Below are positions 26,821-57,202 of a stretch of DNA of 64,000 nucleotides, piece after piece (positions within the stretch are counted from its first letter, which is position 1; each line of letters starts with the position of its first letter). Origin of the DNA: a virus. Taxonomy: Duplodnaviria > Heunggongvirae > Uroviricota > Caudoviricetes. The DNA is taken from IMG/VR virus record IMGVR_UViG_3300020049_005532, positions 22,466-86,465 of that record; one strand, given 5' to 3'. The notes beneath the pieces were generated by a model. That model was not told where the DNA came from, did no database searches, and was given only the letters and a program-made list of their open reading frames with translations. The position numbers and the translations under genes are program-made.

Positions 26821-26999
26821 GAGATTTCTTCCCAACCACCATCATTGAGCAATTCTTCTTCGGAATAACCCATGCCAGCAGGCCCTCCATCCCAAATCGA
26901 GTAGTCAAAATCAATTGGGATAGAAAAATTTACCAAACAAATTCTATATGTTAACTCATAATTTTTATTGGTAAAAGTGCTATTTTTAAAGATCTTCAT
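26817..26999 (-). CDS. Small hypothetical protein (60 aa).
   Basis: ORF track. Confidence 0.25.
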   Translation of the reverse strand: MKIFKNSTFTNKNYELTYRICLVNFSIPIDFDYSIWDGGPAGMGYSEEELLNDGGWEEIS

Positions 27000-27571: not shown

Positions 27572-27839
27572 CGATGCCTTTTTTCTCTAGAACTTTTGTA
27601 TGACGAATAAGATGCGAGTTTAAAACCATCTGGGCATCATACAAGTCTTCTAGTAGTTTTAATACAAATATAAAGTTTCTGTGAGGAATAAGTATTTTGT
27701 AACATTGATCAAGAGCTATCATTGCCGCTTTAATCTGTGGAACATATTTTTTAGCTTTTTGATAAGCAAGGAAGTCAACGGATTTAACGTTGGTGTCAAT
27801 TTCTGTCGGTTTAGATTTAAACGGATTAAAGAAGCTCAT
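27555..27839 (-). CDS. Hypothetical protein (94 aa).
   Basis: ORF track. Confidence 0.35.
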   Translation of the reverse strand: MSFFNPFKSKPTEIDTNVKSVDFLAYQKAKKYVPQIKAAMIALDQCYKILIPHRNFIFVLKLLEDLYDAQMVLNSHLIRHTKVLEKKGIDETQR

Positions 27840-27843
27840 AATT

Positions 27844-28290
27844 CAATCCAGCTATCTGGCCCAAGCTTGCCGTGCCTATAGTGATCAAGGTTTATTTTAT
27901 CTAGACTATCACCAAAATATAAATCAAATTTTTTAAATCGGATTCTATAACTAATTAGCATGGCGTTAGGTCTGTAAAATTTTTGTTTATAAATTATCAT
28001 AATTTTATTTCTTTAATCCAAGGATAATTGTCCAGATTATTTAATACACTAAGATGCGGATCACTTTCCCAAAAAATAATTATAACTTTTTTATCTAATT
28101 CTAGTAGATAACGAAAAGAAACGTCGTTGTCTTTAAAAAGTTTCATAATTTAATTTCTTTAACTATCTTTGTTAAATGAACTATTTCCGCAGAAACCCCT
28201 GCCCAATGACTTAAACAAGTTAATTCAATAACTAATTTATCAAGTGTTAGGATATATCTGTCTTGTAAGCCAGAAACTTTATAAAGAAAC
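27844..28290 (-). other. Cluster of two or three sub-60-aa ORFs absent from the ORF track (e.g. MIIYKQKFYRPNAML... and MKLFKDNDVSFRYLLELDKK...). Boundaries are approximate.
   Basis: Hand translation of the - strand. ATGA-type coupling between consecutive ORFs. Confidence 0.3.
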
Positions 28291-28294
28291 AATC

Positions 28295-29939: not shown

Positions 29940-30593
29940 TTACTTCTTTTTCTTTGATTTTTTCTCTGGACCTTGGACGGGTTTCTTTTCAAATGTAACA
30001 AGTTGCGAAGACAGACGAATTTCTTGTTGCATCAATCGAGGATAGCCAATATGATCGACAAGCCCAAGTTTTAGTGCGTCTTCTGGAGTAAGATAAAGGT
30101 CGCCATTTGAACGGGACTTCATTTTTGTTTCCCAGAATGCCGGAGTTTTATTTGTGTCTTCTGCAAAGTTTCCAATAACAAATTTATTCATTCTGGCAGT
30201 CTCTTCAATAGAAATTTGCATATCGTTAAGTTTGCCCACTGTGCCGCTCGATACTTCATGCAGCATTACAGACGTGCTAGGCGAAGCAAATCGCAGACCT
30301 TTCGATCCGGCTGCTAGCAAGAATGCGCCAGCTGACATGGCTTTACCGTAAGCAATAGTAGCAACTTGTTTATTAGAAGACTTAATTAGATCTCGCATGG
30401 CCATCATATTGTGAGCAGACCCGCCATAAGAACTAATCACGATTTGAATAGTTCCAACTTCTGGATTCTGTTCTGCATCAATAAATCGCTTAGTAAAATC
30501 TTTAAGTCCACTATCACTAAAACTACTAACCCAGATTGGTCCTGTTTCAGATAGTTCCAATCCCTCGATCTGTGGCATCATCATTGTCTTCAT
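29940..30593 (-). CDS. ClpP-like serine protease subunit (copy 2).
   Basis: IVISSYGGSAHNMMAMRDLI...ATIAYGKAMSAGAFLLAAGSKGLRFASPSTSVMLHE parallels ClpP [31 protein letters not shown]. Confidence 0.8.
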   Translation of the reverse strand: MKTMMMPQIEGLELSETGPIWVSSFSDSGLKDFTKRFIDAEQNPEVGTIQIVISSYGGSAHNMMAMRDLIKSSNKQVATIAYGKAMSAGAFLLAAGSKGLRFASPSTSVMLHEVSSGTVGKLNDMQISIEETARMNKFVIGNFAEDTNKTPAFWETKMKSRSNGDLYLTPEDALKLGLVDHIGYPRLMQQEIRLSSQLVTFEKKPVQGPEKKSKKKK

Positions 30594-30731: not shown

Positions 30732-31049
30732 TTACTTAATGATTTCGTCAAAAGTGATATTGAATTGCTTCTTGCTTTCGATTTCAGCAATCTTAGCTTT
30801 TCCTTCTTCTGTATCTGGCGGAAAAAACTTGCCATTGACAACATAAACTTTATTGTTTTCTTTTCCAGGAAGAGTACAGCGAATTGCCGGACCGTTAGGG
30901 TTGTGCAAAAATTTATAAAACTCGTACTTTTTAGCTAGAGTTTCCATGTCATGTTCTGACGGGTTCGAACATTTTGTGTTGAAATCCGAAGAACATGTTA
31001 CTTCAAATTGACCATTTTTATCTTGAAAAGTTACTGTAGAATTTACCAT
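30732..31049 (-). CDS. Hypothetical protein, paralog of 56864..57202.
   Basis: Shared FLHNPNGPAIRC / YLHNTEGPAMVF and KVYVVNGKFFPPDTEEG / KLYVIDGILIPPDTLLG. Confidence 0.4.
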   Translation of the reverse strand: MVNSTVTFQDKNGQFEVTCSSDFNTKCSNPSEHDMETLAKKYEFYKFLHNPNGPAIRCTLPGKENNKVYVVNGKFFPPDTEEGKAKIAEIESKKQFNITFDEIIK

Positions 31050-33481: not shown

Positions 33482-33622
33482 GATATGTTACTTGTCTACA
33501 CAAAATAAAATCGGGTTATTTCCGTACATATCGTGGAAATATAATTCCCATTTTAATATTCCGTTTTCATATTCACAAATAGAAATACTGTGTCCGTAGT
33601 TATAAAACTCAATAGTTCTCAT
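33482..33622 (-). CDS. Small protein (46 aa, MRTIEFYNYGHSISICEYENGILKWELYF...), a small-protein family member.
   Basis: Hand translation. ATGA-coupled to the upstream small ORF. Core ENGILKWELYF. Confidence 0.4.
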
Positions 33623-33750
33623 AGCTTATAGACCAAAAGATACGGTCCATATATGCTGTTTTTAGGAAACACAATTTCCCACTCAATAAAACCTCGAGAA
33701 TTTAATTGCACTAAATAGCTACCAAATTTGTCGTATTTTATTTCAATCAT
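33619..33750 (-). CDS. Small protein (43 aa, MIEIKYDKFGSYLVQLNSRGFIEWEIVF...), a small-protein family member.
   Basis: Hand translation. ATG overlaps the polymerase stop (ATGA). Confidence 0.4.
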   Translation of the reverse strand: MIEIKYDKFGSYLVQLNSRGFIEWEIVFPKNSIYGPYLLVYKL

Positions 33751-39909: not shown

Positions 39910-40191
39910 TTAAATCGAAGTCCAGTCATCTTTTTTTGGTTTATGTTTAATTCTATCTTCCATTTCGTGCTTACTTGCTGTTGCTATGGCTCGTTCTGCC
40001 TGTTCTAATCTATCAAAAAATTGAGCCCGAAAATTAAAATCGCCTTTTGATAAAAAGATCTGCGGAGAATCATACCAAGCATCTTTCCAGAATAACCTAA
40101 TGCCAAGAAACTTAATTGCACATTGAATCTTATATTTATCTAATTTCTTGCTATATAAAATTCGATACTGTCTCATGAAATTATCTTCCAC
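39910..40191 (-). CDS. Hypothetical protein, tandem paralog of 40173..40457.
   Basis: Shared YRI...DKYKIQ...W.D..Y...G...F..LE.A. Confidence 0.4.
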   Translation of the reverse strand: MEDNFMRQYRILYSKKLDKYKIQCAIKFLGIRLFWKDAWYDSPQIFLSKGDFNFRAQFFDRLEQAERAIATASKHEMEDRIKHKPKKDDWTSI

Positions 40192-40457
40192 TTATTTTTT
40201 TCAAGTTTATTTCTTAAGTCTTCAATATTAGCAGCTTTAATGTCTGCTTTTTCAAAAAGTTCTCTTGCCAGCATCGCGTCTTCAAGTGAGTCAAAATATA
40301 GATTACCATACATATTTGAGCCAACATTTCTGTATTCTTTAGTAATTGATCCAAAATATCTAACATCAAACCACAGAGTAAAAAAGAAAATGATAGATTT
40401 CTCTTGAATCTTATATTTATCAACTTCTTCGTGTTTAACAATTCGATAATTTGACAT
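40173..40457 (-). CDS. Hypothetical protein, tandem paralog of 39910..40191.
   Basis: See partner. Confidence 0.4.
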   Translation of the reverse strand: MSNYRIVKHEEVDKYKIQEKSIIFFFTLWFDVRYFGSITKEYRNVGSNMYGNLYFDSLEDAMLARELFEKADIKAANIEDLRNKLEKNKWKIIS

Positions 40458-40711: not shown

Positions 40712-41511
40712 ATTGCTAATTCTCCTTGAATCTGACCATGAGAAGTATAACCAATAAGTTTCAATTTGTCAAGCGAAAAATCGCCTATCTCTTTAATTTC
40801 ATTACTTAATTCGAGTTTTGGTTCAGGAAGTAATGGTCTTGAGATCATCTCCTGACATTGAGTCACATGATTGCTATAAACATGTGCATCTCCCAACGTA
40901 TAAAATAGCTTTCCTGGCAAATAACCAGTTACCTTGGCCAGAAGAGATAGAAGTAAGCTATAAGAAGCGATATTAACTGGAAGCCCTAAAAAGGCATCTG
41001 CTGAGCGCTGGTAGGTGGCCATGTCTAGGTAGGGACCTCTAACGTAGCATTGAATGACTGTGCCGTGGCAGCACGCCAAAGGCTGTTTATCTACAGTGTT
41101 TGGATTCCATAGAGTAACAACGTGTCTGCGACTAGATGGATCACGTTTAACGCTATTGATAAGGCCCATTAGCTGGTCTTTTCCAAGGGCTCCACCATAA
41201 GACCTAAATTGTTCCCCATACATATAATCCAAGTTACCGTCTTCATCGGCCCACGGGCTCCACCAAGCTTGTGCGGACTTATCTAAATCCTTAATATTGG
41301 TTGATCCAGAAAGAAACCACTTTAGTTCCTCAACGGTCCCTTTCCAAGGCATTTTTTTAGCCGTGACCAAAGGAAAACTTTGTTGTAAGTCAAATGTCAT
41401 TGTTGGCAGTCCAAAACAAGAATAAGTACCAACGCCAGTTCTGTCATTAACAAACTGACCATTGTCAAGTATATATTTAACTAAATCTAAATATTGCTTA
41501 GTTTGTGTCAA
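40708..41511 (-). CDS. thyA: Thymidylate synthase.
   Basis: DRTGVGTYSCFG, FPLVTAKK, LACCHGTVIQCYV and the overall ThyA layout. Confidence 0.9.
   Translation of the reverse strand: MTQTKQYLDLVKYILDNGQFVNDRTGVGTYSCFGLPTMTFDLQQSFPLVTAKKMPWKGTVEELKWFLSGSTNIKDLDKSAQAWWSPWADEDGNLDYMYGEQFRSYGGALGKDQLMGLINSVKRDPSSRRHVVTLWNPNTVDKQPLACCHGTVIQCYVRGPYLDMATYQRSADAFLGLPVNIASYSLLLSLLAKVTGYLPGKLFYTLGDAHVYSNHVTQCQEMISRPLLPEPKLELSNEIKEIGDFSLDKLKLIGYTSHGQIQGELAI
40744..40772 (-). promoter_or_regulatory. Sigma70-like promoter TTGACA-N17-TATACT, embedded in the 3' end of thyA and driving the next gene.
   Basis: RC of 40767-40772 is TTGACA and RC of 40744-40749 is TATACT. Confidence 0.5.
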
Positions 41512-41662
41512 ATTCTACCTCTCGAAAATTATCTTTAACGGTATAACTTAAAACACTTTGTTGATAAATCCTTCCTGAATTATAAATAACCAATACAAAA
41601 TTATCAAATTTTAATTCGTATGTCCATATAGCGCCAGAAGGAACTAATCTATATAACTTCAT
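41498..41662 (-). CDS. Small protein (MKLYRLVPSGAIWTYELKFDNFVLVIYNSGRIY...), family member P1.
   Basis: Internal Met of track ORF 41498..41704. ATGA-coupled to P2. Confidence 0.4.
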   Translation of the reverse strand: MKLYRLVPSGAIWTYELKFDNFVLVIYNSGRIYQQSVLSYTVKDNFREVEFDTN

Positions 41663-41811
41663 TGAAACATCACTTGATAATATTCTAATTTTTCTGAAAG
41701 ACAATCCTCAATTACAAATCCGTTATGATAATGTAAATGTATTACAAATTCATCGAACGCGAGTTCATATTGCCAAACTCCACCAATATAAGGTAATTTT
41801 AATAGTTTCAT
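41659..41811 (-). CDS. Small protein (MKLLKLPYIGGVWQYELAFDEFVIHLHYHNGFV..., 50 aa), family member P2.
   Basis: Hand translation. Absent from the track. Paralogous to P1. Confidence 0.4.
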   Translation of the reverse strand: MKLLKLPYIGGVWQYELAFDEFVIHLHYHNGFVIEDCLSEKLEYYQVMFQ

Positions 41812-42011
41812 TTCTTAGGCCCATAATATAACTCTGGACTAGAGCCATCTGTGTATTTCTCAAATGCTCCAGGGCAGTGGACTTGAGCCCAGAGGAAAAA
41901 TAATCCTATAACTTCATGAACCTGAAGCTCATGATCAACACAAAGCTCAAAATAAAGCTTTTCTAAATCAGTTGTGATTTGTCCAACTGGACGAAGTTTT
42001 ACTTTCGACAT
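41808..42011 (-). CDS. Small protein (67 aa) with LYFELCVDHELQV core, family member P3.
   Basis: ORF track. Motif related to P1 and P2. Confidence 0.4.
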   Translation of the reverse strand: MSKVKLRPVGQITTDLEKLYFELCVDHELQVHEVIGLFFLWAQVHCPGAFEKYTDGSSPELYYGPKK

Positions 42012-48850: not shown

Positions 48851-49147
48851 TCACCAGTTCTGTTTGAAGATAGTGAATAGCTTTGTATATGGGGAATAAC
48901 TTTCGCGTTTATTTCTCAACTTTATATAATGACAAAATCCAAGTTCAATATATACTACTTCCTGTTTATCAATAAAAACAAGCTGTCTAGTCTTTACTTT
49001 TTTGAAAAACAAAAGTTTAAATACGTCTATTAAATTTACAGTTGATACTTTTGGTTTTAAAAATCCAATACGCTGTATTTTTACTTGCAGCTTAAAATGA
49101 AATCTATAACCAAATATATAACCTGGTACTTTTATTTTAAATGCCAC
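48851..49147 (-). CDS. Hypothetical protein (98 aa).
   Basis: ORF track. Confidence 0.3.
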   Translation of the reverse strand: MAFKIKVPGYIFGYRFHFKLQVKIQRIGFLKPKVSTVNLIDVFKLLFFKKVKTRQLVFIDKQEVVYIELGFCHYIKLRNKRESYSPYTKLFTIFKQNW

Positions 49148-50759
49148 AAACTCCTCCCAAGCACTCTAGCTCTTTTTCTTCAAAAACTTTACCTTCTTGA
49201 GCTAAAGCTTCTTCTAGCGACACCCGTGTTAATGGCTGTCCGCCGCGACACCCGTCAGGATAGACGGTAAATCCGCGAAGACGTTTCCCGTAATTTAAAA
49301 GAATATCAGCTTTTTGTTTTACGTTAGTGTCGTTGTTTTCTTCAGATCCCCAGCTTGGCATATTGCATGTTGAACTAATTGCCATATCTACATAGTTCTG
49401 AACATCAGCTTGGAACTTAACTCGCTGTCTAAATGACAAGTCATAGCTGTCCTGGATATCTTCAATTTTAACTCCTTGGTCCATAAGACGCTTCACTGCG
49501 CCATCTACAACATATTGAGCGAGCCATTTACCGTCTTTAAAATACCGACGAACATATGCCTTACAAAACAAAGGCTCTAGTCCAGTCGTCGTTTCGGCAA
49601 TAATACCAATTGTTCCAGTTGGTGCGATTGCTCTGACACCTTTTGGCACCGCAACATTTAATTGTTTAGCTCCAACAAATGCCGCAGCATCCGACTCTTG
49701 CTCGTAAACAGATAACCATTTATGTAGCTCCGGAACAGCTTCGTACTTATGTCCACGAGTCATAAGCCATTCGTGCATACCACCAAGACCTAATCCAATT
49801 CGATTATTCTTTGTTCCAATCTCTCTAATCTTTTCACTTGGGACGTCGGAGTAAATGCTTCCGCAAAGTAAGAACAAAGTAGAAAGTTTCACTACATCAG
49901 CAAACTCTTTGCGATCTTTACAACGATTCATCCAGACAGTTCCAAGATTACACTTATCGCTATCATCTTCGCTTACAACTTCCGTGCAGGCGTTTCTCAG
50001 GCTCTCATTATCTTTACGAAAGTTAAATGCCATGCCTGGTTCAGCTGTAGAAAATGCTTGACGACAGTTTTCATACCAAACTTTCTTGGCGTGTTCGTGC
50101 TTAGGATGATTTTCATCTTCAATTGCAATAAAAAATTCTGTGTTATAATTAACCGAGATGTTAGTTAGCTCCATAGGAAGCGGAAAATTAAAATCGTTTT
50201 CTTTTGCTTTTCGCAAAGCTTCGCTATGATCTTTCAATTTAAGAAACTGAAACACATCGCCGTGATCCCATTGCAGACCTGCCCAAATTGCAGACCTTTG
50301 TTGGCCACCTTGCATGATGTATCTTCCTGATTCGTTCACCATATTCATGAGAGCGATAGGTCCCGTTGATGTCCCTCCGGTTCTACCGATAGGGGCACCA
50401 TTGGCTCTTAGTTTTGAATAATCAAAACCAATTCCGCCGCCAGTCATTAGTGCAGCAGTTGCCTTGTGAACAGCGTCTGCCCAACCTTCGCGACTGTCTT
50501 CCGCTCTAAACAAAAAGCAGTTATTGACTTGATGAAAAGCGCGTCCAGAAGAATATAAATATCTTCCTCCTGGAATAAATTTTCGATCAATCATGTATTG
50601 TTTAATTTTATTTTTTTCTTTGTTACCGAGAAGCTGACCGCAAACGGCATTAACCACTCGATTGCAAGTGTCTGACCAAGTTTCGGTTCCTCCCATTGAA
50701 TACTTTTGAATATAGATATCTTGTGCGAATTTAGACCCAAATACATCGTACTTTGACAT
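49137..50759 (-). CDS. Ribonucleotide reductase catalytic subunit (compact, monomeric-type, 540 aa). No NrdB-like partner in the window.
   Basis: GGGIGFDYSKLRANGAPI. Thiyl-radical loop NACTEV parallels SNLCTEI. PTGTIGIIAETTTGLEP. C-terminal CLGGVCG. Confidence 0.75.
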   Translation of the reverse strand: MSKYDVFGSKFAQDIYIQKYSMGGTETWSDTCNRVVNAVCGQLLGNKEKNKIKQYMIDRKFIPGGRYLYSSGRAFHQVNNCFLFRAEDSREGWADAVHKATAALMTGGGIGFDYSKLRANGAPIGRTGGTSTGPIALMNMVNESGRYIMQGGQQRSAIWAGLQWDHGDVFQFLKLKDHSEALRKAKENDFNFPLPMELTNISVNYNTEFFIAIEDENHPKHEHAKKVWYENCRQAFSTAEPGMAFNFRKDNESLRNACTEVVSEDDSDKCNLGTVWMNRCKDRKEFADVVKLSTLFLLCGSIYSDVPSEKIREIGTKNNRIGLGLGGMHEWLMTRGHKYEAVPELHKWLSVYEQESDAAAFVGAKQLNVAVPKGVRAIAPTGTIGIIAETTTGLEPLFCKAYVRRYFKDGKWLAQYVVDGAVKRLMDQGVKIEDIQDSYDLSFRQRVKFQADVQNYVDMAISSTCNMPSWGSEENNDTNVKQKADILLNYGKRLRGFTVYPDGCRGGQPLTRVSLEEALAQEGKVFEEKELECLGGVCGI

Positions 50760-50766
50760 GTTGCTC

Positions 50767-50931
50767 CTATTTAAATATTATTGTGTGATAATCAAATTTT
50801 TCAGGCTTACCAGAAAGAACTATTGGTTTACCTCTCTCTGGTAAAGAAAACAATATACACGTCTTTTCATCTAAAGTCAAGTAATAAACGTCGGCTTCTA
50901 TTAACAAAGAATGTCTCTTTGATAAAATCAT
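50767..50931 (-). CDS. Small protein S1 (54 aa, MILSKRHSLLIEADVYYLTLDEKTCILF...).
   Basis: Hand translation. RBS overlaps its stop just before the RNR ATG. Confidence 0.4.
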   Translation of the reverse strand: MILSKRHSLLIEADVYYLTLDEKTCILFSLPERGKPIVLSGKPEKFDYHTIIFK

Positions 50932-51091
50932 AAATCAATTTTGCAAATGTAATATTTGTATCTTTTTGTAAATACTATAGATTCTAGTTTTTCTATATCA
51001 AATCTAAGACTGAATGCCGAATAATCTTCATTCTGAGCTAAAATAAAATATCTAGCCGTGGAAGAACCGACAGATGAATAACAATACTCTC

Positions 51092-51241
51092 CTATCGTAA
51101 TTTAATCCTTGTGCTAAGTCTGGTATCTTCATCTGTCCATTCGGCTAATGAGATCTCCCAATTTCCGTAAGATTTATAGTTGATAATTATGAAACCATCA
51201 AAAACCAAGTAATAGGTTCCGGCGTGTTTATAAAGAGTCAC
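51092..51241 (-). CDS. Small protein B (49 aa, GTG start; VTLYKHAGTYYLVFDGFIIINYKSYGNWEISL...).
   Basis: Hand translation. GTGA overlap with the upstream stop. Confidence 0.35.
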   Translation of the reverse strand: MTLYKHAGTYYLVFDGFIIINYKSYGNWEISLAEWTDEDTRLSTRIKLR

Positions 51242-51399
51242 ATTGGCACCATATCTTTGACGTAGTGAACGCCAAAGACCTCTGCGATTTCTCCATTATA
51301 GCAAAATGCAAGCATAAAATCATCCGATAAATAAAAAGCTGTACCAAAATCAATACTAGTACTAACTTTGTATAAAGGATATTTTCCGTTCCGGACCAT
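51238..51399 (-). CDS. Small protein C (53 aa, MVRNGKYPLYKV...CYNGEIAEVFGVHY...).
   Basis: Hand translation. TGATG overlap. YNGE core. Confidence 0.45.
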   Translation of the reverse strand: MVRNGKYPLYKVSTSIDFGTAFYLSDDFMLAFCYNGEIAEVFGVHYVKDMVPM

Positions 51400-51566
51400 C
51401 AACATTCGGCTGTTAACCCTTCTAATGATTTGACATTAACAAGACTTGCGTCAATTTCTCCGTTATATCGAAAAAAGATAGCAATATTACCACAAATCAG
51501 TGTCGTCCCCCAGTAGTCACTAAGACTATCCTTAGTAAGGAAATGACCATTCCATATTCTAAACAT
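51399..51566 (-). CDS. Small protein D (55 aa, MFRIWNGHF...FFRYNGEIDASLVNV...).
   Basis: Hand translation. TAAATG junction. YNGE core. Confidence 0.45.
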   Translation of the reverse strand: MFRIWNGHFLTKDSLSDYWGTTLICGNIAIFFRYNGEIDASLVNVKSLEGLTAEC

Positions 51567-51743
51567 TTAAAACTCTCCAGGTTCAAACATGTCTGCATTA
51601 TCAGATTTATGAAATGTTGTTAAATGAAAGATAGCTCCATCGTAATGAAAAGTTATGCCACTCTCTTCATACTCTGAAACAAAAATAACATATCTATAGC
51701 CCAGGCGCATTAGTTGACTATAATTTTTCCACTGATAAATCAT
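51567..51743 (-). CDS. Small protein E (58 aa, MIYQWKNYSQLMRLGYRYVIFVSEYEESGITFHYDGAIFHL...).
   Basis: Hand translation. ATGA-coupled. Confidence 0.45.
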   Translation of the reverse strand: MIYQWKNYSQLMRLGYRYVIFVSEYEESGITFHYDGAIFHLTTFHKSDNADMFEPGEF

Positions 51744-51931
51744 TTAAAAGTTGCTCTCCTAAAGACCATTCTATTAGTTCCAAGTAGATCATTAGCGTCC
51801 TTATAGGGAACTAATCCTATATAACCATCACTAAAAAAACATAAAAGTGATATATCCCAATCATTTAAAGATAAAGGAATTAGGTACCTAGTTTCTTGAC
51901 GAAGATGATTATCAACAAATTCAATAAACAT
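51740..51931 (-). CDS. Small protein F (63 aa from the internal Met MFIEFVDNH...; the track ORF extends to 51967).
   Basis: ORF track plus internal ATG. Confidence 0.4.
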   Translation of the reverse strand: MFIEFVDNHLRQETRYLIPLSLNDWDISLLCFFSDGYIGLVPYKDANDLLGTNRMVFRRATFK

Positions 51932-52106
51932 TAGTAAAATCCTCGGTCCAAAGGTCGTCAGTCCCATCGTCTTCTTTGTATAAACGAAAATCTATATTCC
52001 CACCGTAAGTAAATCTAACATGACAAGAATCTAACTCTAAAATAATCGGGTAATTCCAACTATCTTCGGTTCTAATTAGTGAAAAACCAACCCATCTCTT
52101 TATCAT
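51921..52106 (-). CDS. Small protein G (61 aa, MIKRWVGFSLIRTEDSWNYPIILELDSCHVRFTYGGNIDFRL...).
   Basis: ORF track. Confidence 0.45.
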   Translation of the reverse strand: MIKRWVGFSLIRTEDSWNYPIILELDSCHVRFTYGGNIDFRLYKEDDGTDDLWTEDFTNVY

Positions 52107-52264
52107 GTCACCAAACCTCCATAAAAGGAAAAGCCGACGATTCTACCAACAGCGGGACTGTCTCCATGTCTCGTATCAAAGACGATGAACCTGTCGTCAG
52201 TAATAAAAAACGCATACAGCCCATTGCGCAACGGACTTGAATATAACAAAGAGATTCTTTCCAT
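52103..52264 (-). CDS. Small protein H (53 aa, MERISLLYSSPLRNGLYAFFITDDRFIVFDTRHGDSP...).
   Basis: Hand translation. RBS GAGGTAG. ATGA-coupled to G. Confidence 0.45.
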   Translation of the reverse strand: MERISLLYSSPLRNGLYAFFITDDRFIVFDTRHGDSPAVGRIVGFSFYGGLVT

Positions 52265-52307
52265 ACACAAACACTACCTCACTTCTTCGAAAAAGTCAAT
52301 AAAATAC

Positions 52308-52335
52308 TTGACAATTCATCAAAAAGGTATATACT
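52308..52335 (+). promoter_or_regulatory. Near-consensus sigma70 promoter TTGACA-N16-TATACT on the + strand, inside an otherwise - strand region.
   Basis: TTGACA at 52308-52313 and TATACT at 52330-52335. Confidence 0.5.
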
Positions 52336-52339
52336 GGAC

Positions 52340-52751
52340 AAGTCGATGCGATTCTAACAGACGTTAAACTAGGAGATACCACAGAACCAATACTGTGCAT
52401 GGAACGATCTAAGTCAAGGGCAGCAAAGCAAGTTAAGCTGGACTGGTATTTACAGAACAAACCGCCAACTAGTCAACCTGATCGTTTCATTGGACATACA
52501 CTAAAAGAGTGCGCTACACAAGGATAAGTGCCCGACGAGAACATAGGGACATCGGACTTTGTAAATAGACCGAATACTACTTATTTAATGAACCTGAAAC
52601 GGTTAATGATTCTTGGTAGTGACAGTTAAGCTAGTGGTAGATAAAGCCTGATGCTATTGCTTATCGAATACAGGTAAGTAAGGTAAGGGCGGTCTATTGT
52701 CTTGAGTGCACTCTGACCTCGGATAAATGAAAACCCCAGATTCCTCTAGGG
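52340..52751 (+). ncRNA. Candidate non-coding transcript: about 410 nt with no convincing ORF on either strand, downstream of the + strand promoter.
   Basis: Absence of ORFs in a genome that is otherwise ATGA-coupled. Contains the palindrome GAGTGCACTC and a direct repeat CTCTAGGG x2. No tRNA-like motif was recognised. Confidence 0.3.
52399..52527 (+). CDS. Possible 42-aa ORF (MERSKSRAAKQVKLDWYLQNKPPTSQPDRFIGHTLKECATQG) downstream of the + promoter. Weak support.
   Basis: The AGGAGA upstream is about 22 nt from the ATG, so there is no well-spaced RBS. Reported only as a candidate. Confidence 0.15.
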   Translation: MERSKSRAAKQVKLDWYLQNKPPTSQPDRFIGHTLKECATQG

Positions 52752-52913
52752 TTACATCTTTCTGAATTTGTCTTCTGACTCTAGGGATGTGATGTGGTGG
52801 GTGCTTCCTATGTAGTTGCAGGTGCCGTCAGTTTTAAACACAACACCGCTGTATGGTGAGAGTGGTATCACTAAGACCCATATGTAGTGGTCGTTTGGTC
52901 TTATGAGAATCAT
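52752..52913 (-). CDS. Small protein I (53 aa, MILIRPNDHYIWVLVIPLSPYSGVVFKTDGTCNYIGSTHH...).
   Basis: Hand translation. ATGA-coupled to J. Confidence 0.45.
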   Translation of the reverse strand: MILIRPNDHYIWVLVIPLSPYSGVVFKTDGTCNYIGSTHHITSLESEDKFRKM

Positions 52914-53068
52914 GACATTTCCTCATAGCCTTGCTCCAAAAGAATGAACACAGGAACTCGATAACTAACGTCAATGCTTCCGTCAACATGAAACTTTATG
53001 ATCGCGCCTCCAAGATCAATAAAGCTATTAATGCGAAACTTATGGTTCTTTAGATTAGTGTAAATCAT
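52910..53068 (-). CDS. Small protein J (52 aa, MIYTNLKNHKFRINSFIDLGGAIIKFHVDGSIDVSYRVPVFILLEQGYEEMS).
   Basis: Hand translation. ATGA-coupled. C-terminal YEEMS. Confidence 0.45.
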   Translation of the reverse strand: MIYTNLKNHKFRINSFIDLGGAIIKFHVDGSIDVSYRVPVFILLEQGYEEMS

Positions 53069-53226
53069 GGCATTTCCTTGTAAGTTAAGAGACAGGGACC
53101 TCTTTCTCCGTTATAGCCCAACTCGACACCGTATTTACAGAAACCTATGGTGACAGTTTGTAATCTAATAAAAAGAATATAGGAGTGACCTATGTTAATA
53201 TTAGAACTTCTTCTAATATACATCAT
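53065..53226 (-). CDS. Small protein K (53 aa, MMYIRRSSNINIGHSYILFIRLQTVTIGFCKYGVELGYNGERGPCLLTYKEMP).
   Basis: Hand translation. YNGE core. C-terminal KEMP. Confidence 0.45.
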   Translation of the reverse strand: MMYIRRSSNINIGHSYILFIRLQTVTIGFCKYGVELGYNGERGPCLLTYKEMP

Positions 53227-53396
53227 GGCATTTCCTCGTAAACACTGACAGCACGATCAAAAAGTTCAGTTGGCATACCCCAAAGACAGTTTATATCACC
53301 ATCGCTTCTAAACATGATCATAACTCCATCCAATACCAACACTGTATGATTATATGATACATAATCAGGGTCATTGTTCTTATAAATTTTAAACAT
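53223..53396 (-). CDS. Small protein L (57 aa, MFKIYKNNDPDYVSYNHTVLVLDGVMIMFRSDGDINCLWGMPTELFDRAVSVYEEMP).
   Basis: Hand translation. TAATG overlap with the 267-aa gene. C-terminal YEEMP. Confidence 0.45.
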   Translation of the reverse strand: MFKIYKNNDPDYVSYNHTVLVLDGVMIMFRSDGDINCLWGMPTELFDRAVSVYEEMP

Positions 53397-54199
53397 TAAA
53401 ACCTATCCTTGACTTTAAGTTCATCAAACAACTGACCTATTGGTGGCGCTCCTTCAGCCGATCTATGCTTCCATTTAATTGCGCTCCAGAAGTCCTTAAT
53501 GCCTTTAGAACGAAGCGACACTGTCTTAGTCTCATCTGTATAGCCAGCTGTAGGACGGCGCTTGTAGAGCCATCTAGAGACCATCGCAACAGGAGTATCA
53601 AGTGAGTCGTAAGCCTGGATCATACCGAGAACAAAGTTATCGTCATCGCTATGGTCTGGATTGTAATAACCAACAATATTTGTTATTACTGCATTGCCCA
53701 GCATAAATAGATCGGTAACTGTCAGCAGTGGCCTAAAGAAATTCCATCCCCAATGCTTAGAGATCATGGCGTATGAGCGTATATACTGTCCCCAGTGCTC
53801 TGGACTGGCAAAGTCTACCTGATACCAAGGCTTAGGCACTGGATTGTCGCCTGGCCAAATGTGGTAACTATTTTGATAGAAGCCTAATCTTTTAACCTGT
53901 TCTTTAAGCTGACGGGTTAATAGATCTTTACGTCCAGCATAGCCTGTCCAAATAACCATAGACATAATCTGATCACGGCTAGTTGATTTAGGGTCTGATA
54001 TCCAAGAATCGGTATAAGGATATCTAACCCAGATGCCAGGACTAATCTCGGCAGCTTCTGGATTTAACTTAAACTTAACTTGACTATGGCGTCGCTGGAT
54101 AACATCAACAAGGGTTGTCTTCTGAAGGGCATCCCCGCCATCGCCATTTCCCATACAAACAAATCCATTAAAAATAAAGTCAATCATAGTTGTCTCCAA
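53396..54199 (-). CDS. Hypothetical protein (267 aa), W/Y-rich.
   Basis: ORF track. Confidence 0.45.
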   Translation of the reverse strand: METTMIDFIFNGFVCMGNGDGGDALQKTTLVDVIQRRHSQVKFKLNPEAAEISPGIWVRYPYTDSWISDPKSTSRDQIMSMVIWTGYAGRKDLLTRQLKEQVKRLGFYQNSYHIWPGDNPVPKPWYQVDFASPEHWGQYIRSYAMISKHWGWNFFRPLLTVTDLFMLGNAVITNIVGYYNPDHSDDDNFVLGMIQAYDSLDTPVAMVSRWLYKRRPTAGYTDETKTVSLRSKGIKDFWSAIKWKHRSAEGAPPIGQLFDELKVKDRF

Positions 54200-54357
54200 G
54201 GACTAAAGTCCATTCCTTCACAACATTCCTCAGTGCTAATTTTTCCAGTACCATGAAAATCAATCGTAACATCTTTAGATATAAAGATAAAATATCTCGG
54301 ACTGTTTGTGAAAAAAGGGCTGTATCGACTAAAATCGGTCCAAATAGTGCCAATCAT
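54184..54357 (-). CDS. Small protein M (57 aa, MIGTIWTDFSRYSPFFTNSPRYFIFISKDVTIDFHGTGK...).
   Basis: Internal Met of the track ORF. ATGA-coupled to N. Confidence 0.45.
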   Translation of the reverse strand: MIGTIWTDFSRYSPFFTNSPRYFIFISKDVTIDFHGTGKISTEECCEGMDFSPWRQL

Positions 54358-54527
54358 AATTTTTTCCAATTTGACCAATGAGGTATAGGTTGATTCATAC
54401 AAAGTGACGGCTTAAAATTGTAAGCTTTTTCAAAATCTAAAACAGTATAGCCTTGTTGGTCCTGTTCTTCAAAAAGAACAAGGAAATACCAATCTTTAGA
54501 ATCTACTCCCCAAATAGTACCAATCAT
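54354..54527 (-). CDS. Small protein N (57 aa, MIGTIWGVDSKDWYFLVLFEEQDQQGYTVLDF...).
   Basis: Hand translation. Same MIGTIW N-terminus as M. Confidence 0.45.
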   Translation of the reverse strand: MIGTIWGVDSKDWYFLVLFEEQDQQGYTVLDFEKAYNFKPSLCMNQPIPHWSNWKKL

Positions 54528-54805
54528 TGATACCTGACCTCATCCAAGAATCTAACTCCATACATCGCAAGTTGCTCTTTCATAAGGGTTTTTGCTTCGA
54601 GTTCGCTTCCGCACAGCTGAAAAAATAGTTTAATCCCGTCAAGAGTATAAATCTCAACAAGATTGTCTTTGATAAAACCTCTTACTACTTCATGCGTACC
54701 AACAAAGTTTGGCGTACACAAGGTTCCGTCACTTAAAGTTCTATATCGGATTCGCTTATACTGTTTCACTTTTTGACCTTCTATACGAAAGATTCTCTCG
54801 TCCAT
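54524..54805 (-). CDS. Hypothetical protein (93 aa).
   Basis: ORF track. Confidence 0.35.
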   Translation of the reverse strand: MDERIFRIEGQKVKQYKRIRYRTLSDGTLCTPNFVGTHEVVRGFIKDNLVEIYTLDGIKLFFQLCGSELEAKTLMKEQLAMYGVRFLDEVRYQ

Positions 54806-54963
54806 CAGAAGTAAAAATCCAACCGTACTGCGTACAAAAAACTACCTCTCCAGTAAAATTTAACTTGTTGTCTTGTTCCGGATAACAAAAAATGACAGTT
54901 TGCTTTCTTAGTAAAAAAGAATACAAATTGTATTTTAACAGACGCTGCCGTAAAATAAACCAA

Positions 54964-55635
54964 TTAATAATTTTTTTCATTTGTTTTTTCCTTGACAAAT
55001 AAACTTTTAATCCATCCCCATAGCGTAGGCTTTGGATATAACCAAGAATATATGAACTTTTCCTTATTGTCAATAAGAGAAATTATCTCATCTTCGCTAA
55101 ACAATGTATGCTTTTGGTCCCATCCTACGTCTATCATATTGTTATTCTTTAAGTATTTGGCATGTAAATGTCCATGCAAAAGAAATAATCCCGTGTCCTT
55201 GGGTCGCATATTCATGTAACGTTTATCATATTGTGCAGCTGAAGCATAGGGAAGATGCGACATAAGAACTTCTCTTCCGTTCTTAAGCGTAATAGTCATC
55301 TCGTCTGTAATTAGTGACCAACCAGCTGTCAAGTACCGCTGTCTCATCTTGTCTTGCTTCTTATTGACTCGACCAAAGACATATGGATAAGTTGCGCAGT
55401 GATTGCCATGCACTAAGATCTTTGTTCCGTTAAGCTTTGGCGTATATTCTTCCGCAACTTTAGGGTTAAGACTAAAATCGCCAAGAACATATACTGTGTC
55501 TTCCGGCTTAACTACACGGTTCCACTCTGCCACAATTGCATTGTTCATTTCTGTTACGTCTTTGTATGGACGTTTGCAATAGTCAATAACACGAGAATGC
55601 GAGAAATGGAGATCAGAAATCCAAAACCTTTTCAT
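54964..55635 (-). CDS. Calcineurin-like metallophosphoesterase (lambda-phosphatase / Pnkp phosphoesterase-like).
   Basis: ISDLHFSH, VYVLGDFSLNP, LVHGNHC and LLHGHLH. Confidence 0.7.
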   Translation of the reverse strand: MKRFWISDLHFSHSRVIDYCKRPYKDVTEMNNAIVAEWNRVVKPEDTVYVLGDFSLNPKVAEEYTPKLNGTKILVHGNHCATYPYVFGRVNKKQDKMRQRYLTAGWSLITDEMTITLKNGREVLMSHLPYASAAQYDKRYMNMRPKDTGLFLLHGHLHAKYLKNNNMIDVGWDQKHTLFSEDEIISLIDNKEKFIYSWLYPKPTLWGWIKSLFVKEKTNEKNY

Positions 55636-55778
55636 AATTCCTCCAAGTCAGTTAATTGTACACAATATTGCTCACCATCAATCAAAGATTGAACTTTGTA
55701 ACATGCATATTTGTGAAGAAATTTAACAACAATTACTATGTCTTTTTCTTTCCAGCAATGAAAAACACTACCAATCAT
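55632..55778 (-). CDS. Small protein O (48 aa, MIGSVFHCWKEKDIVIVVKFLHKYACYKVQSLIDGEQYCVQLTDLEEL).
   Basis: Hand translation. ATGA-coupled to the phosphoesterase gene. Confidence 0.4.
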   Translation of the reverse strand: MIGSVFHCWKEKDIVIVVKFLHKYACYKVQSLIDGEQYCVQLTDLEEL

Positions 55779-56074
55779 CAATGCCATGTTGTTTTCTTTA
55801 GCTCCTCCGGATTAATCTTAGTAAACTCGTCGCCCTTTGGTTCTTCTTGTTTTGGCAACGGCAATTGTTTTGGTGCCGGAGTTTCTTTGGCAAGTAAAGC
55901 CACTGACAATGCGTCAAGAATAGCAGTCAATGTTAATACTGGATGAGCTTGGCCCCCAAGTGCCATCGCAAGCTTAACATCTTCGTCTTGCTCGATCAGC
56001 TCAAGACCTTTTTTCTTCATCTCGTCAAGAAGAACAGAATATTCGTGTAGTCTTTGTGCTTTACTTTGTTTCAT
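55778..56074 (-). CDS. Hypothetical protein (98 aa).
   Basis: ORF track. Confidence 0.35.
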   Translation of the reverse strand: MKQSKAQRLHEYSVLLDEMKKKGLELIEQDEDVKLAMALGGQAHPVLTLTAILDALSVALLAKETPAPKQLPLPKQEEPKGDEFTKINPEELKKTTWH

Positions 56075-56304
56075 AGTGTCTCCTTTAGTTCAAACTTCTT
56101 CATATAAAGCTCATGAATTGCCGCTTCTTCAAGTTCCAGGTTACTTTCTTCGTCCAATACCTGATCATACTCTTCTCCGTCAGGAGTGTAGAGCTTAATC
56201 TTAAGGTTCTTGGCACCATACGAAGTTACGCTTCGAGCCTTGGCTACGACTTCGATCTCGTGACTGTCACTAATTTTATGTCTGAATCTAGTTTTTAATT
56301 TCAT
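56071..56304 (-). CDS. Hypothetical protein (77 aa).
   Basis: ORF track. Confidence 0.35.
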   Translation of the reverse strand: MKLKTRFRHKISDSHEIEVVAKARSVTSYGAKNLKIKLYTPDGEEYDQVLDEESNLELEEAAIHELYMKKFELKETL

Positions 56305-56636
56305 GACGTTGCCTCCATAAACATTAGAACGGCAAGCTGCCGAGCCAATTGAGTTTGCTCATTGTACTTTCCATTGAACTCATAAAGCCCCAATCTGTCT
56401 ACTCCAACATATTTTGCGTATTCTACATCAATTGGAATATCTAGATCATCGTAATTCCAACTTGCAAATGCGACGGCAACACAAGAATATTTATAAAAAA
56501 GAATTTCTTCCCTGTGACCTTTAACATATTCAAGAGTTTCGGCTGCTTTTTTTAGTATTTGACGGCGCTGTTTTTTCGTTAACTTTTTCATATTCACTTC
56601 CCTGCCATTAAGATAAAATAAGATACCATGAGCCAA
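56301..56636 (-). CDS. Hypothetical protein (likely start MKKLTKKQRRQ...).
   Basis: ORF track. Confidence 0.35.
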   Translation of the reverse strand: MAHGILFYLNGREVNMKKLTKKQRRQILKKAAETLEYVKGHREEILFYKYSCVAVAFASWNYDDLDIPIDVEYAKYVGVDRLGLYEFNGKYNEQTQLARQLAVLMFMEATS

Positions 56637-56757
56637 AACCCGAAGCCACTAAATAAATACAATGCGCCACCGATCAATGCTTTAAAAAAGAAGATAGCCA
56701 TTAGTTCACTCTCCATGCTTCAAGGACTTCGTTAAACAATCGGTCGATACGTTCGTA
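56635..56757 (-). CDS. Tiny hydrophobic peptide (about 35-40 aa, M(ESEL)MAIFFFKALIGGALYLFSGFGFWLMVSYFILMAGK). Coordinates approximate.
   Basis: Hand translation. Single TM segment. Confidence 0.25.
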
Positions 56758-56863
56758 TGAACCAGAACCAAAAGACTTGATAACTCCGTCTACAGTACCA
56801 ACAAGGACAAATACTCCGTTGTCTTCTTTCATTTCAATTGTGAGACCTGGGCCTTCGTATGCT

Positions 56864-57202
56864 TTAATTAGTTTCACGAGAAAATACTCCTTTAATTAAT
56901 GTTTCAATATTCAAATTTTGATCATCAATCAATTTAATAACTTTCGCACCAAGTAGTGTATCTGGCGGTATTAAGATTCCGTCTATAACGTACAATTTTG
57001 GTTTTTTATCGGAGTCAGTAAATACCATTGCTGGCCCTTCTGTATTGTGCAAATATTTAAATGGAGAAAAATTTACAACGATCTCTTGCCAAGTTAAATC
57101 TTCTGGATTAGAACAAATTGCCAAAAACTCTTCTTTGACACTAATTTTAATATCAATGTCTTTTGGTTTAAAAGTTACAGTTTTCATAACGCTCCTTTTC
57201 AT
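56864..57202 (-). CDS. Hypothetical protein, paralog of 30732..31049.
   Basis: See partner. Confidence 0.4.
   Translation of the reverse strand: MKRSVMKTVTFKPKDIDIKISVKEEFLAICSNPEDLTWQEIVVNFSPFKYLHNTEGPAMVFTDSDKKPKLYVIDGILIPPDTLLGAKVIKLIDDQNLNIETLIKGVFSRETN

What the first reader, a model, noticed from the sequence alone, without database searches (positions are those of the whole stretch)
50767..55778. Expanded family of ~45-60 aa paralogous proteins in translationally coupled tandem arrays
Between the RNR gene and the phosphoesterase gene the >=60-aa ORF track is almost empty. Hand translation of the - strand shows at least 15 back-to-back small genes (S1, B-L, M, N, O). Nearly all are joined by ATGA/TGATG/TAATG stop-start overlaps.

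The genes share recurring features. N-termini start M-I-x-x-(x)-W: MIGTIW appears twice, plus MIGSVF, MIKRW, MIYQW and MFRIW. Cores carry YNGE or (F/Y).DG.I. C-termini end in (Y/K)EEMP or YEEMS.

Related tandem sets with a W.YEL.F core lie at 41498-42011 (three genes), 33482-33750 (two genes) and 27840-28290. A locally amplified, diversifying small-protein family on this scale is not explained by any standard phage module. It looks like a rapidly evolving accessory locus, plausibly anti-defence or host-takeover.
Basis: seen in the sequence. Interest (0 to 1): 0.85.

Follow-up and report, generated by a model that had tools for sequence, protein, structure and literature searches.

The report
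Fast-evolving small-gene arrays in a phage
An uncultured phage carries strings of very small, real protein genes from two home-grown gene families; they change about ten times faster than the genes around them and probably help the phage deal with its host, though this is a larger-than-usual case of a known pattern rather than a new kind of system.

Summary
The small - strand ORFs are real. Seventeen genes under 100 aa lie between 50767 and 55787. Most have an RBS and ATGA or 1-nt stop-start overlaps, and most show coding codon usage. IMG gene calling had already predicted several of them.

They are not one family of 15 or more. Profile tests with shuffled and negative controls support two families:
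- Group A ("F..DG.I" core): 9-10 genes, all between the phosphoesterase and RNR genes.
- Group B ("Y.L.(F/L)D..VI" core): 6 genes at four sites.
- About six ORFs remain unassigned, and the A-B link is not significant.

AlphaFold gives confident, similar five-stranded beta-meander folds for both groups, with no informative structural neighbour. No homologues turned up in Pfam, PHROGs, NCBIfam, cultured phages or 1.84 billion protein representatives.

Only two fragmentary relatives carry the locus. In the close one, flanking genes are 94-96% identical, the orthologous 57-aa gene is 44% identical, and copy number differs per slot.

Best reading: lineage-specific, tandemly duplicated, fast-diverging accessory genes. 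A role as host-interaction proteins is inferred, not shown.

The parts
55632..55787 (-). 51-aa gene (start MALMIGSVF...), ATGA-coupled to the phosphoesterase gene. Not a demonstrable family member.
   Evidence: Codon score +0.17 per codon. About 76% aa conserved in L044. Family tests not significant.
54964..55635 (-). Calcineurin-like phosphoesterase (223 aa), a conserved anchor gene.
   Evidence: phrog_547, E = 3.7e-44. 94% aa identity to L043, dN/dS 0.04. An IMG sibling is named 'calcineurin-like phosphoesterase'.
54756..54980 (-). 74-aa ORF lying in a roughly 210-nt insertion (54775-54983) that is absent from L043. It has captured the old phosphoesterase C-terminal codons (KSETV*).
   Evidence: Weak group-A signal, p = 0.033.
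54524..54769 (-). Conserved 81-aa gene (GTG start), not a family member.
   Evidence: 96% aa identity to L043, dN/dS 0.02.
54354..54527 (-). 57-aa gene 'MIGTIW-a', in the variable slot upstream of the 263-aa gene. Unassigned, with a weak group-A hint.
   Evidence: Codon score +0.21. 18-nt 5' repeat shared with 54184-54357. p = 0.021 against A. L043 has one 50-aa gene in this slot.
54184..54357 (-). 57-aa gene 'MIGTIW-b', group A member.
   Evidence: Leave-one-out 12.5 bits, 0/1000 shuffles. Already called in IMG (P0006).
53396..54187 (-). 263-aa conserved orphan gene in the middle of the arrays (ATG 54187, ATGA-coupled). Function unknown.
   Evidence: No Pfam or PHROG hit. Only homologues are P0001 (51% id) and P0017 (95% aa identity to the window copy). 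dN/dS 0.03.
53223..53396 (-). 57-aa group A gene, the first of a four-gene sub-array with repeated junctions.
   Evidence: Leave-one-out 24.3 bits, 0/1000. AF2 pLDDT 86. The L043 orthologue is 44% identical, dN 0.50.
53065..53226 (-). 53-aa group A gene (YNGE).
   Evidence: p = 15/1000. Junction repeat. YNGE codons repeated in DNA (D4).
52910..53068 (-). 52-aa group A gene.
   Evidence: 16.6 bits, 0/1000. Pair z = 7.8 with 53223.
52752..52913 (-). 53-aa ORF, last of the sub-array. Borderline member with a weak codon score.
   Evidence: Junction repeat AGGAAATGTCATGAT. p = 7/400 but not significant. Codon score -0.10.
52732..52753 (-). Terminator-like hairpin directly after the sub-array.
52271..52751 (.). 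ORF-poor gap with no recognisable family remnant and no stable RNA fold.
   Evidence: fold z = -0.85. No Rfam or tRNA match.
52103..52264 (-). 53-aa group A gene, the first of a seven-gene coupled run.
   Evidence: 6.5 bits, 5/1000. RBS GAGG. Codon score weak.
51921..52106 (-). 61-aa group A gene.
   Evidence: 7.9 bits, 3/1000.
51740..51931 (-). 63-aa gene with a good coding score. Unassigned.
   Evidence: Family tests not significant.
51567..51743 (-). 58-aa group A gene.
   Evidence: 19.5 bits, 0/1000. IMG gene call P0008.
51399..51566 (-). 55-aa group A gene (YNGEI).
   Evidence: 18.8 bits, 0/1000.
51238..51405 (-). 55-aa group A gene (YNGEI). The start may be ATG 51399.
   Evidence: 10.4 bits, 0/1000. 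P0010 and P0014 are alternative starts.
51092..51241 (-). 49-aa group B gene (GTG start).
   Evidence: 13.7 bits, 0/1000. z = 7.6 with 41498.
50767..50931 (-). 54-aa group B gene just upstream of RNR, with a promoter-like site at 51001-50974.
   Evidence: 10.5 bits, 0/1000..
41498..41811 (-). Two tandem group B genes (50 and 54 aa) between a conserved 67-aa gene and thymidylate synthase.
   Evidence: Pair z = 12.8. 20.3 bits each, 0/1000. AF2 pLDDT 90.6. ThyA identified.
27997..28292 (-). Two tandem group B genes (49 aa each) downstream of the RNA ligase gene.
   Evidence: Pair z = 7.4. 21.5 and 12.1 bits, 0/1000. RNA ligase identified.
27836..28000 (-). 54-aa coupled small gene. Unassigned.
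33488..33750 (-). Two coupled small genes (44 and 43 aa) downstream of the DNA polymerase gene. Unassigned.
   Evidence: (pair z = 3.7). Polymerase identified.

Best explanation
The arrays are real, co-transcribed and mostly translationally coupled genes for 43-63-aa cytoplasmic proteins. The proteins are aromatic-rich and mostly acidic.

They belong to at least two lineage-specific paralogous families:
- Group A: 9-10 copies between the phosphoesterase and RNR genes.
- Group B: 6 copies at four sites.

Both families are predicted to fold as a small five-stranded antiparallel beta-meander. They sit in 'slots' between conserved replication and nucleotide-metabolism genes of an uncultured phage of about 86 kb.

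The families grew by tandem duplication and by insertion or replacement of cassettes at gene junctions. Short conserved junction sequences, which also serve as the next gene's RBS and start, provide microhomology for this. After duplication the copies diverge 10-25 times faster at the protein level than their neighbours, while keeping reading frame, length and hydrophobic core.

Inferred, not shown: the products are dispensable accessory proteins that bind host factors (defence, toxin or takeover targets), and an arms race drives their turnover.
For: Coding:
- Codon log-likelihood is gene-like for most ORFs, with an RBS and start-stop overlaps.
- Nine members exist as IMG gene calls.
- AF2 models are confident from paralog-only alignments: pLDDT 86.2 and 90.6.
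- The L043 orthologue keeps a 57-codon ORF, with conserved core residues, at 44% identity.

Families:
- Leave-sub-family-out profiles beat 98% or more of shuffles for 12 of 22 candidates, against 4 of 45 negative controls.
- Within-group leave-one-out gives 4-24 bits with 0-15/1000 shuffles.
- External proteins x1354, x1530 and x1690 (L042) and y57 and y54 (L043) hit group A.

Duplication and junction homology:
- AGGAAATGYCATGAT occurs three times at 155/158-nt spacing, with 0 expected.
- ATGATTGGYACTATTTGG occurs twice.
- The YNGEI codons are repeated in DNA.

Turnover:
- Window versus L043: PE, g81 and g263 are 94-96% aa identical with dN/dS 0.02-0.04, while the s57 gene has dN 0.50.
- One slot holds one gene in L043 and two in the window.
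- A 210-nt cassette insertion lies at the PE/g81 junction.
- Identity boundaries are sharp.
- L042 has 5 small genes between the 263-aa homologue and RNR, against 12 here.
- Not all small genes are variable: 56701-56877 is about 93% conserved.

Lineage specificity: no hits in Pfam, PHROGs, NCBIfam, the PDB profile search, tblastn against phages, or 1.84e9 protein representatives.

Analogy from the literature:
- Small-gene indels and replacements in T4-type hyperplastic regions (PMC2839356).
- Microhomology-driven tandem amplification of the small anti-toxin gene tifA (PMC9391042).
Against: - There are no expression data.
- The rate comparison rests on one close relative, with short contigs and saturated dS (pS 0.73). 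In-situ fast evolution cannot be separated from allelic replacement by recombination.
- Four ORFs have weak codon scores.
- High pLDDT for tiny beta proteins built from shallow paralog alignments is supportive, not proof.
- Tandem small paralog pairs also occur in related contigs. The window is therefore the extreme of a continuum rather than unique.
Confidence: 0.6

Rival explanations
1. This is one single superfamily. Groups A and B and the unassigned ORFs all descend from one ancestral mini-gene and have diverged beyond sequence recognition.
For: - Same size, same genomic behaviour, and the same predicted strand order b1-b2-b3-b4-(helix)-b5.
- Four of six group B members score p = 0.03-0.06 against the group A profile.
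- The mixed profile recovered members of both groups.
- Group B genes 51092 and 50767 lie in the same run as group A genes.
Against: - hhalign A5 versus A4 gives P = 0.047 and probability 1%, over only a 16-column hairpin.
- A members against the B profile are not significant.
- An HMM seeded on the B trio recruits no A member.
- The two models could not be superposed because no coordinates were available.
Confidence: 0.25
2. The arrays are functionless filler: products of duplication and illegitimate recombination in a recombination-prone region, drifting nearly neutrally and not yet purged.
For: - The s57 orthologue shows 57% nt identity, close to the neutral expectation for the neighbours' dS.
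- Other slots cannot be aligned.
- There are no homologues anywhere.
- Several ORFs have weak codon scores.
Against: - ORFs stay open, of uniform length, and keep their RBS and coupling.
- The dN of s57 (0.50) is below the neighbours' dS (0.8-1.5), and the conserved residues are the core and turn positions.
- Most ORFs have gene-like codon usage.
- Confident folds are predicted.
- Phage genomes are under packaging constraint (general knowledge; see PMC9391042 for T4).
Confidence: 0.15
3. The co-translated paralogs are subunits of one hetero-oligomeric assembly, for example an Sm-like ring or a propeller-like ring built from single beta-sheet units.
For: - Seven coupled genes lie in one run (52264 to 51092).
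- Translational coupling favours stoichiometric expression (general knowledge).
Against: - Copy number is not conserved: 12 between the 263-aa gene and RNR here, against 5 in L042, and 2 against 1 in the MIG slot.
- Sequence turnover is extreme, which is unusual for obligate complex subunits.
Confidence: 0.05
4. The region is non-coding (RNA or spacer) and the ORFs are chance.
For: All ORFs are under 65 aa, and some have weak codon scores.
Against: - The chain covers the strand almost without gaps.
- RBS and start-stop overlaps are present, and wrong-frame ORFs score negative.
- Profile similarity is far above shuffled and wrong-frame decoys.
- There is no Rfam or tRNA match.
- The orthologous ORF is preserved in L043.
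Confidence: 0.02

Closest known systems
Hyperplastic regions of T4-type phages with PeSL-mediated modular shuffling (Arbiol et al. 2010, PMC2839356)
   Same: Clusters of small, mostly ORFan, presumably non-essential genes lie between conserved genes. Insertions, deletions and replacements of single small genes distinguish close relatives. Short conserved sequences sit at the cassette boundaries.
   Different: - Here the boundary sequences are RBS/stop-start overlap junctions inside a coupled operon, not promoter-plus-stem-loop cassettes. Only one terminator-like hairpin was found.
- The slot genes belong to two paralogous families rather than being unrelated ORFans.
- Mini-circles cannot be assessed.
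Segmental tandem amplification ('genomic accordion') of small counter-defence genes, for example T4 dmd-tifA (Srikant et al. 2022, PMC9391042) and poxvirus K3L (cited there)
   Same: A small accessory gene is present in tandem copies, with short (6-18 nt) homologies at the unit boundaries, in a plastic region next to nucleotide-metabolism genes.
   Different: - Those amplifications are recent and near-identical, and act through dosage.
- Here the copies are old and diverged: 30% identity or less, and no tandem repeat detectable in DNA.
- That suggests diversification rather than dosage.
- Function is unknown.
Small stand-alone beta domains (KTSC domain PF13619; Sm/LSm fold)
Uncharacterised 55-70-aa phage proteins in BFVD (e.g. 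A0A192Y7M9 of phage NBD2, A0A1J0GV99 of Vibrio phage pVa5)
   Same: Similar size and predicted fold (TM 0.5-0.6, Foldseek probability up to 0.99).
   Different: E-values are 0.1 or higher and sequence identity is 13-17%. None has a known function, and none is reported as a tandem family.

Membership tests
Any curated protein family (Pfam, PHROGs, NCBIfam) | HMM match at or near the family threshold | tested here: not met
   Pfam at E <= 10 gave nothing relevant. PHROGs at E <= 0.1 over all members gave nothing. NCBIfam gave nothing.
KTSC domain (PF13619) | Match to the Pfam KTSC model | tested here: not met
   No KTSC hit even at E <= 10. The profile search against PDB sequences did not retrieve 7x8c.
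KTSC domain (PF13619) | Structural similarity to a solved KTSC protein | tested here: inconclusive
T4-type hyperplastic region / PeSL cassette shuffling | Insertion, deletion or replacement of small genes between otherwise conserved genes in close relatives | tested here: met
   Window versus L043 and L044: a 210-nt cassette insertion, 1 versus 2 genes in one slot, and unalignable slot genes between flanks of 84-87% nt identity.
T4-type hyperplastic region / PeSL cassette shuffling | Cassettes bounded by early promoter plus stem-loop terminator units | tested here: not met
   Genes overlap by 1-4 nt, leaving no room for such units. One terminator-like hairpin is present and terminators are not enriched (3 found versus 4.0 expected). 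Promoter-like sites: 30 versus 20.2 +/- 4.7.
Recent segmental amplification (genomic accordion) | Near-identical tandem repeat units | tested here: not met
   TRF finds no array. Paralogs are 30% aa identical or less.
Recent segmental amplification (genomic accordion) | Short homologies at unit boundaries | tested here: met
   A 15-nt junction repeat occurs three times and an 18-nt 5' repeat twice, with 0 and 0.13 expected.
Diversity-generating retroelement | Reverse transcriptase plus template/variable repeat pair | tested here: not met
   No long near-identical repeat in the region. No RT among the larger proteins scanned. Caveat: only 64 of about 86 kb is visible.
Known anti-defence proteins (Acr, Tad, Gad, TifA, etc.) | Homology to a characterised anti-defence protein, or a demonstrated inhibitory activity | not testable with these tools

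The most novel reading that the evidence does not exclude
The arrays could be a phage-encoded repertoire of hypervariable mini-binders. In this reading, one compact beta scaffold is multiplied to 15 or more copies and diversified by birth-and-death evolution and junction-mediated cassette exchange. Each copy would neutralise a different host defence or toxin protein. That would be a viral counterpart of polymorphic immunity-gene arrays, with the coupling junctions doubling as recombination sites.
Probability: 0.15. Interest if true: 0.8.

Novelty: new variant of a known kind. Interest (0 to 1): 0.45.

Why it matters
If the function is confirmed, these would be two new families of about 55-aa phage proteins on a compact, confidently predicted beta scaffold, diversifying at roughly ten times the rate of their neighbours. 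That would make them a natural library of small binders and a candidate source of new anti-defence or host-takeover factors.

The locus also shows a tidy mechanism. Translational-coupling junctions (RBS plus ATGA) serve at once as expression signals and as microhomology for cassette gain, loss and exchange. This forces apparent 'protein motifs' at the N- and C-termini, which is a practical warning for motif-based family calls on short overlapping genes.

As it stands, this is an extreme example of the known plasticity of phage accessory regions, and its function is unknown.

Tried and rejected
- **DNA similarity to cultured phages.** Megablast and blastn of the region against 50,697 phage records gave no match.
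- **Segmental duplication.** I suspected one because two ORFs are both 267 aa. They are unrelated; one is thymidylate synthase.
- **HMM iteration from the B trio.** It recruits nothing further.
- **RNR-anchored relatives.** Forty-one IMG/VR loci share core genes only. None of the small ORFs is present, by phmmer or by family profile.
- **Anchoring on the 263-aa gene.** Nothing was found in IMG/VR or the JGI metagenome contigs, with a single sequence or with an alignment.
- **Concatenated queries to the 5.8-billion-protein search.**
  - Two queries returned nothing.
  - They also failed to return the window's own proteins, which are in the collection.
  - I therefore treat these nulls as weak evidence.
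  - The third concatenated query did work and found P0001.
- **Exact look-up of RNR and of the 57-aa protein in the gene-position index.** Neither is on record.
- **KTSC lead from memory.** Not supported by sequence.
- **The afdb50 fold library.** Unavailable.
- **Large hits in the exhaustive search.** The three large proteins (CUB-type, MucBP-like and one other repeat protein) are additive weak beta-hairpin matches, not relatives.
- **The 52271-52751 gap.** It holds no decayed family member, no Rfam or tRNA match, and no unusual RNA stability.
- **DNA alignment of the four sub-array units.** Uninformative beyond the junctions.

Full report
**What is there**

On the - strand between the RNR gene (49137-50759) and 55787 lies a chain of co-oriented genes. 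In order:
- a 51-aa gene (55632-55787)
- a phosphoesterase (54964-55635; phrog_547)
- a 74-aa ORF (54756-54980)
- an 81-aa gene (54524-54769)
- two 57-aa genes that both begin MIGTIW (54354-54527 and 54184-54357)
- a 263-aa orphan gene (53396-54187)
- four genes of 52-57 aa (53223-53396, 53065-53226, 52910-53068, 52752-52913)
- a terminator-like hairpin (52753-52732)
- an ORF-poor gap of about 460 nt
- seven coupled genes of 49-63 aa (52264 down to 51092)
- a 160-nt gap containing a promoter-like site
- a 54-aa gene (50767-50931)
- RNR

Most starts have a GGAG/GAGG-type RBS. Most junctions are ATGA/GTGA (4-nt) or TAATG/TGATG (1-nt) overlaps. This coupling is common across the whole - strand arm, at 32 of 99 junctions, so it is not special to the arrays.

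**Are they genes?**

- A codon log-likelihood model trained on the window's long ORFs gives +0.10 to +0.22 per codon for most chain ORFs. Long genes score +0.13 to +0.24, and overlapping or antisense ORFs score negative.
- Four ORFs score near zero or slightly negative: 52752, 52103, 53065 and 50767.
- Nine of the small proteins already exist as IMG gene calls. They are singleton clusters on a JGI/IMG contig of 86,465 bp, so the window is part of a phage-like genome of about 86 kb.
- There is no tRNA and no Rfam match.

**Is it one family?**

Pairwise Smith-Waterman scores against shuffles give a few strong pairs:
- 41498/41659, z = 12.8
- 52910/53223, z = 7.8
- 41498/51092, z = 7.6
- 27997/28143, z = 7.4

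Profile tests add more.
- In a leave-one-out test against 1,010 six-frame decoys, 9 of 22 candidates rank first and 13 rank in the top three.
- With whole sub-families left out and 400 composition-matched shuffles, 12 of 22 reach p <= 0.025.
- Only 4 of 45 other small genes of the window reach that level, and their maximum is 5.1 bits.

Adding external sequences resolved the picture into two groups.
- Group A has the core hydrophobic strand / turn / 'I.F..DG.I'. Members are 53223, 52910, 53065, 54184, 52103, 51921, 51567, 51399 and 51238, with 52752 borderline.
- Group B has the form 'MKLYK...Y.L.(F/L)D..VI'. Members are 41498, 41659, 51092, 27997, 28143 and 50767.
- Within-group leave-one-out scores are 4-24 bits, with 0-15 of 1000 shuffles as good.

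The link between A and B is not significant.
- hhalign gives P = 0.047 over 16 columns.
- B members against the A profile give p = 0.03-0.26.

The ORFs 54354, 55632, 51740, 33619, 33488 and 27836 remain unassigned. The gene 41808-42011 is an unrelated, conserved 67-aa gene.

**The terminal motifs are nucleotide signals**

- The C-terminal YEEMP/YKEMP/YEEMS motif coincides with AGGAAATGYCATGAT. This sequence occurs three times at 155/158-nt spacing, against 0 expected.
- It reads as GAGGAA (the RBS of the next gene), a spacer, then ATGA. KEIKL* at 27997 and 28143 is the same kind of junction.
- In L042 the C-terminal 'KGW/EGW' codons likewise form the next gene's RBS.
- With an ATGA overlap, the second codon must start with A. 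That explains the excess of MI/MK/MT/MM N-termini; this follows directly from the sequence.
- The two MIGTIW genes share 17 of 18 nt at the 5' end, but little else.
- The genuine protein-level signal is therefore in the core, not the termini.

**Structure**

| Model | Alignment used | pLDDT | pTM | Elements |
|---|---|---|---|---|
| 53223 product | 15 paralogs | 86.2 | 0.64 | b2-7, b18-22, b25-29, b35-38, helix 43-50, b53-56 |
| 41498 product | 6 group-B sequences only | 90.6 | 0.69 | b2-6, b14-18, b22-27, b32-36, b46-49 |

- The two models have the same strand order.
- BFVD returns only uncharacterised 55-70-aa phage proteins, at E >= 0.1 and TM 0.5-0.6.
- The proteins are aromatic-rich (16% versus 8.5% in large genes) and mostly acidic, and no hydrophobic (transmembrane-like) segment is apparent in the sequences (for composition).

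**Distribution**

- Nothing matched in Pfam, PHROGs or NCBIfam.
- The profile search of PDB sequences found nothing.
- tblastn of two members against 50,697 phage genomes found nothing significant.
- The exhaustive hmmsearch of 1.84 billion representatives found nothing beyond the window's own proteins and three spurious repeat proteins.
- Forty-one IMG/VR contigs share the RNR gene (68-80% identity) and scattered replication genes, but none of the small genes.

Only the 263-aa gene led to syntenic relatives.

L042 is an NCBI contig of 2.6 kb, in which the 263-aa homologue is 51% identical.
- Its order is [small gene] - homologue - 55, 59, 57, 55 and 112-aa genes - RNR.
- Three of its small proteins hit the window-derived group A profile.

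L043 and L044 are JGI contigs on which the 263-aa gene is 95% identical.

**Rates and turnover**

| Gene (window versus L043) | aa identity | dN | dN/dS |
|---|---|---|---|
| Phosphoesterase | 94% | 0.051 | 0.04 |
| 81-aa gene | 96% | 0.021 | 0.02 |
| 263-aa gene | 95% | 0.026 | 0.03 |
| 57-aa gene after the 263-aa gene | 44% | 0.50 | not reliable (pS 0.73, saturated) |

- The 57-aa gene is an intact orthologue of identical length.
- Its dN is 10-25 times that of its neighbours, yet below their dS (0.8-1.5). Some constraint therefore remains.
- The next gene shares only 'M(I/M)YIR'.
- The slot upstream of the 263-aa gene holds one 50-aa gene in L043 and two 57-aa genes here. Only 'MIG...' and '...WRQL*' are in common.
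- The window has a cassette of about 210 nt inserted at the PE/g81 junction. It created the 74-aa ORF and left the old PE C-terminal codons at its end.
- Identity drops from 0.8-1.0 to background within about 16 nt of the gene boundaries.
- Other small genes are not hypervariable. The gene 56701-56877 is about 93% conserved and 55632-55787 about 76%.

**Context**

- The arrays are embedded in the replication and nucleotide-metabolism arm. This arm carries RNA ligase, two ClpP-like proteases, DNA polymerase, primase-helicase, Erf, ThyA, exonucleases, DNA ligase, RNR and the phosphoesterase.
- No reverse transcriptase was seen.
- Around RNR the window has 24 genes of 65 aa or less in 21.6 kb. 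That is the highest of 28 comparable loci (range 0-17).
- It also has 7 small-protein paralog pairs, against 0-3 in the relatives.
- It is therefore the extreme of a continuum in which tandem small paralogs recur.

**Interpretation**

Shown:
- The genes are real.
- There are two paralogous families with similar predicted folds.
- Junction repeats are present.
- Divergence is extreme and localised, and copy number changes between relatives.

Inferred:
- The arrays grew by tandem duplication and by microhomology-mediated cassette gain, loss and exchange at coupling junctions. This is analogous to modular shuffling in T4-type hyperplastic regions (PMC2839356) and to microhomology-driven amplification of tifA in T4 (PMC9391042).
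- The products are dispensable host-interaction proteins under arms-race pressure. No tool result bears on that function.

Rival readings are listed separately: a single superfamily, neutral filler, or subunits of a hetero-oligomeric ring.

**Caveats**

- The rate comparison rests on one close relative with short contigs.
- dS is saturated.
- The AF2 alignments are shallow.
- The two concatenated-query nulls are unreliable, because they did not return self-hits.

Noticed in passing
window 30732-31049 and 56864-57187 (- strand); L044 1116-1433: There is a second paralogous family of about 105 aa (BLASTP E = 5e-18), with a 'KYLHN..GPA' motif. In the close relative L044 a copy sits in a different slot, between the 77-aa and 98-aa genes, and the copy at the window's 56864-57187 position is absent. 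The gene therefore appears to move between slots.
   Followed up: partly
window 39910-40176 and 40173-40457 (- strand): A tandem pair of ATGA-coupled paralogs of 88 and 94 aa (BLASTP E = 1e-5; shared 'YRI...DKYKIQ'). This is another example of tandem duplication in this genome.
   Followed up: partly
window 26996-27571 and 29940-30560 (- strand): Two ClpP-like / head-maturation-protease-like paralogs lie in the replication arm, both matching phrog_94 (E about 1e-27). This is an unusual location for a prohead protease.
   Followed up: no
window 52271-52751: An ORF-poor gap of about 460 nt, with slightly higher GC, follows a terminator-like hairpin. It shows no family remnant, no Rfam hit and no stable fold. 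The + strand carries two adjacent short open frames (52399-52527 and 52528-52629) that might be a decayed gene.
   Followed up: partly
window 53396-54187 (- strand): A 263-aa protein under strong purifying selection (dN/dS 0.03) has no Pfam or PHROG match. Only two homologues were found among billions of proteins. One (P0001) carries an extra 69-aa N-terminal extension. Its function is unknown, yet it is clearly important to this phage lineage.
   Followed up: partly
L024 2468-2838; L030 5545-6065; L011 17291-17872: Related IMG/VR contigs also contain adjacent pairs of small paralogous genes (phmmer E < 0.01). Tandem duplication of mini-genes may therefore be a recurrent habit of this broad phage group.
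   Followed up: no
window 56301-56591 versus L044 626-889: The 96-aa and 87-aa genes are conserved only in their C-terminal third. The N-terminal two-thirds cannot be aligned between close relatives, which suggests a chimeric or partly replaced gene.
   Followed up: no
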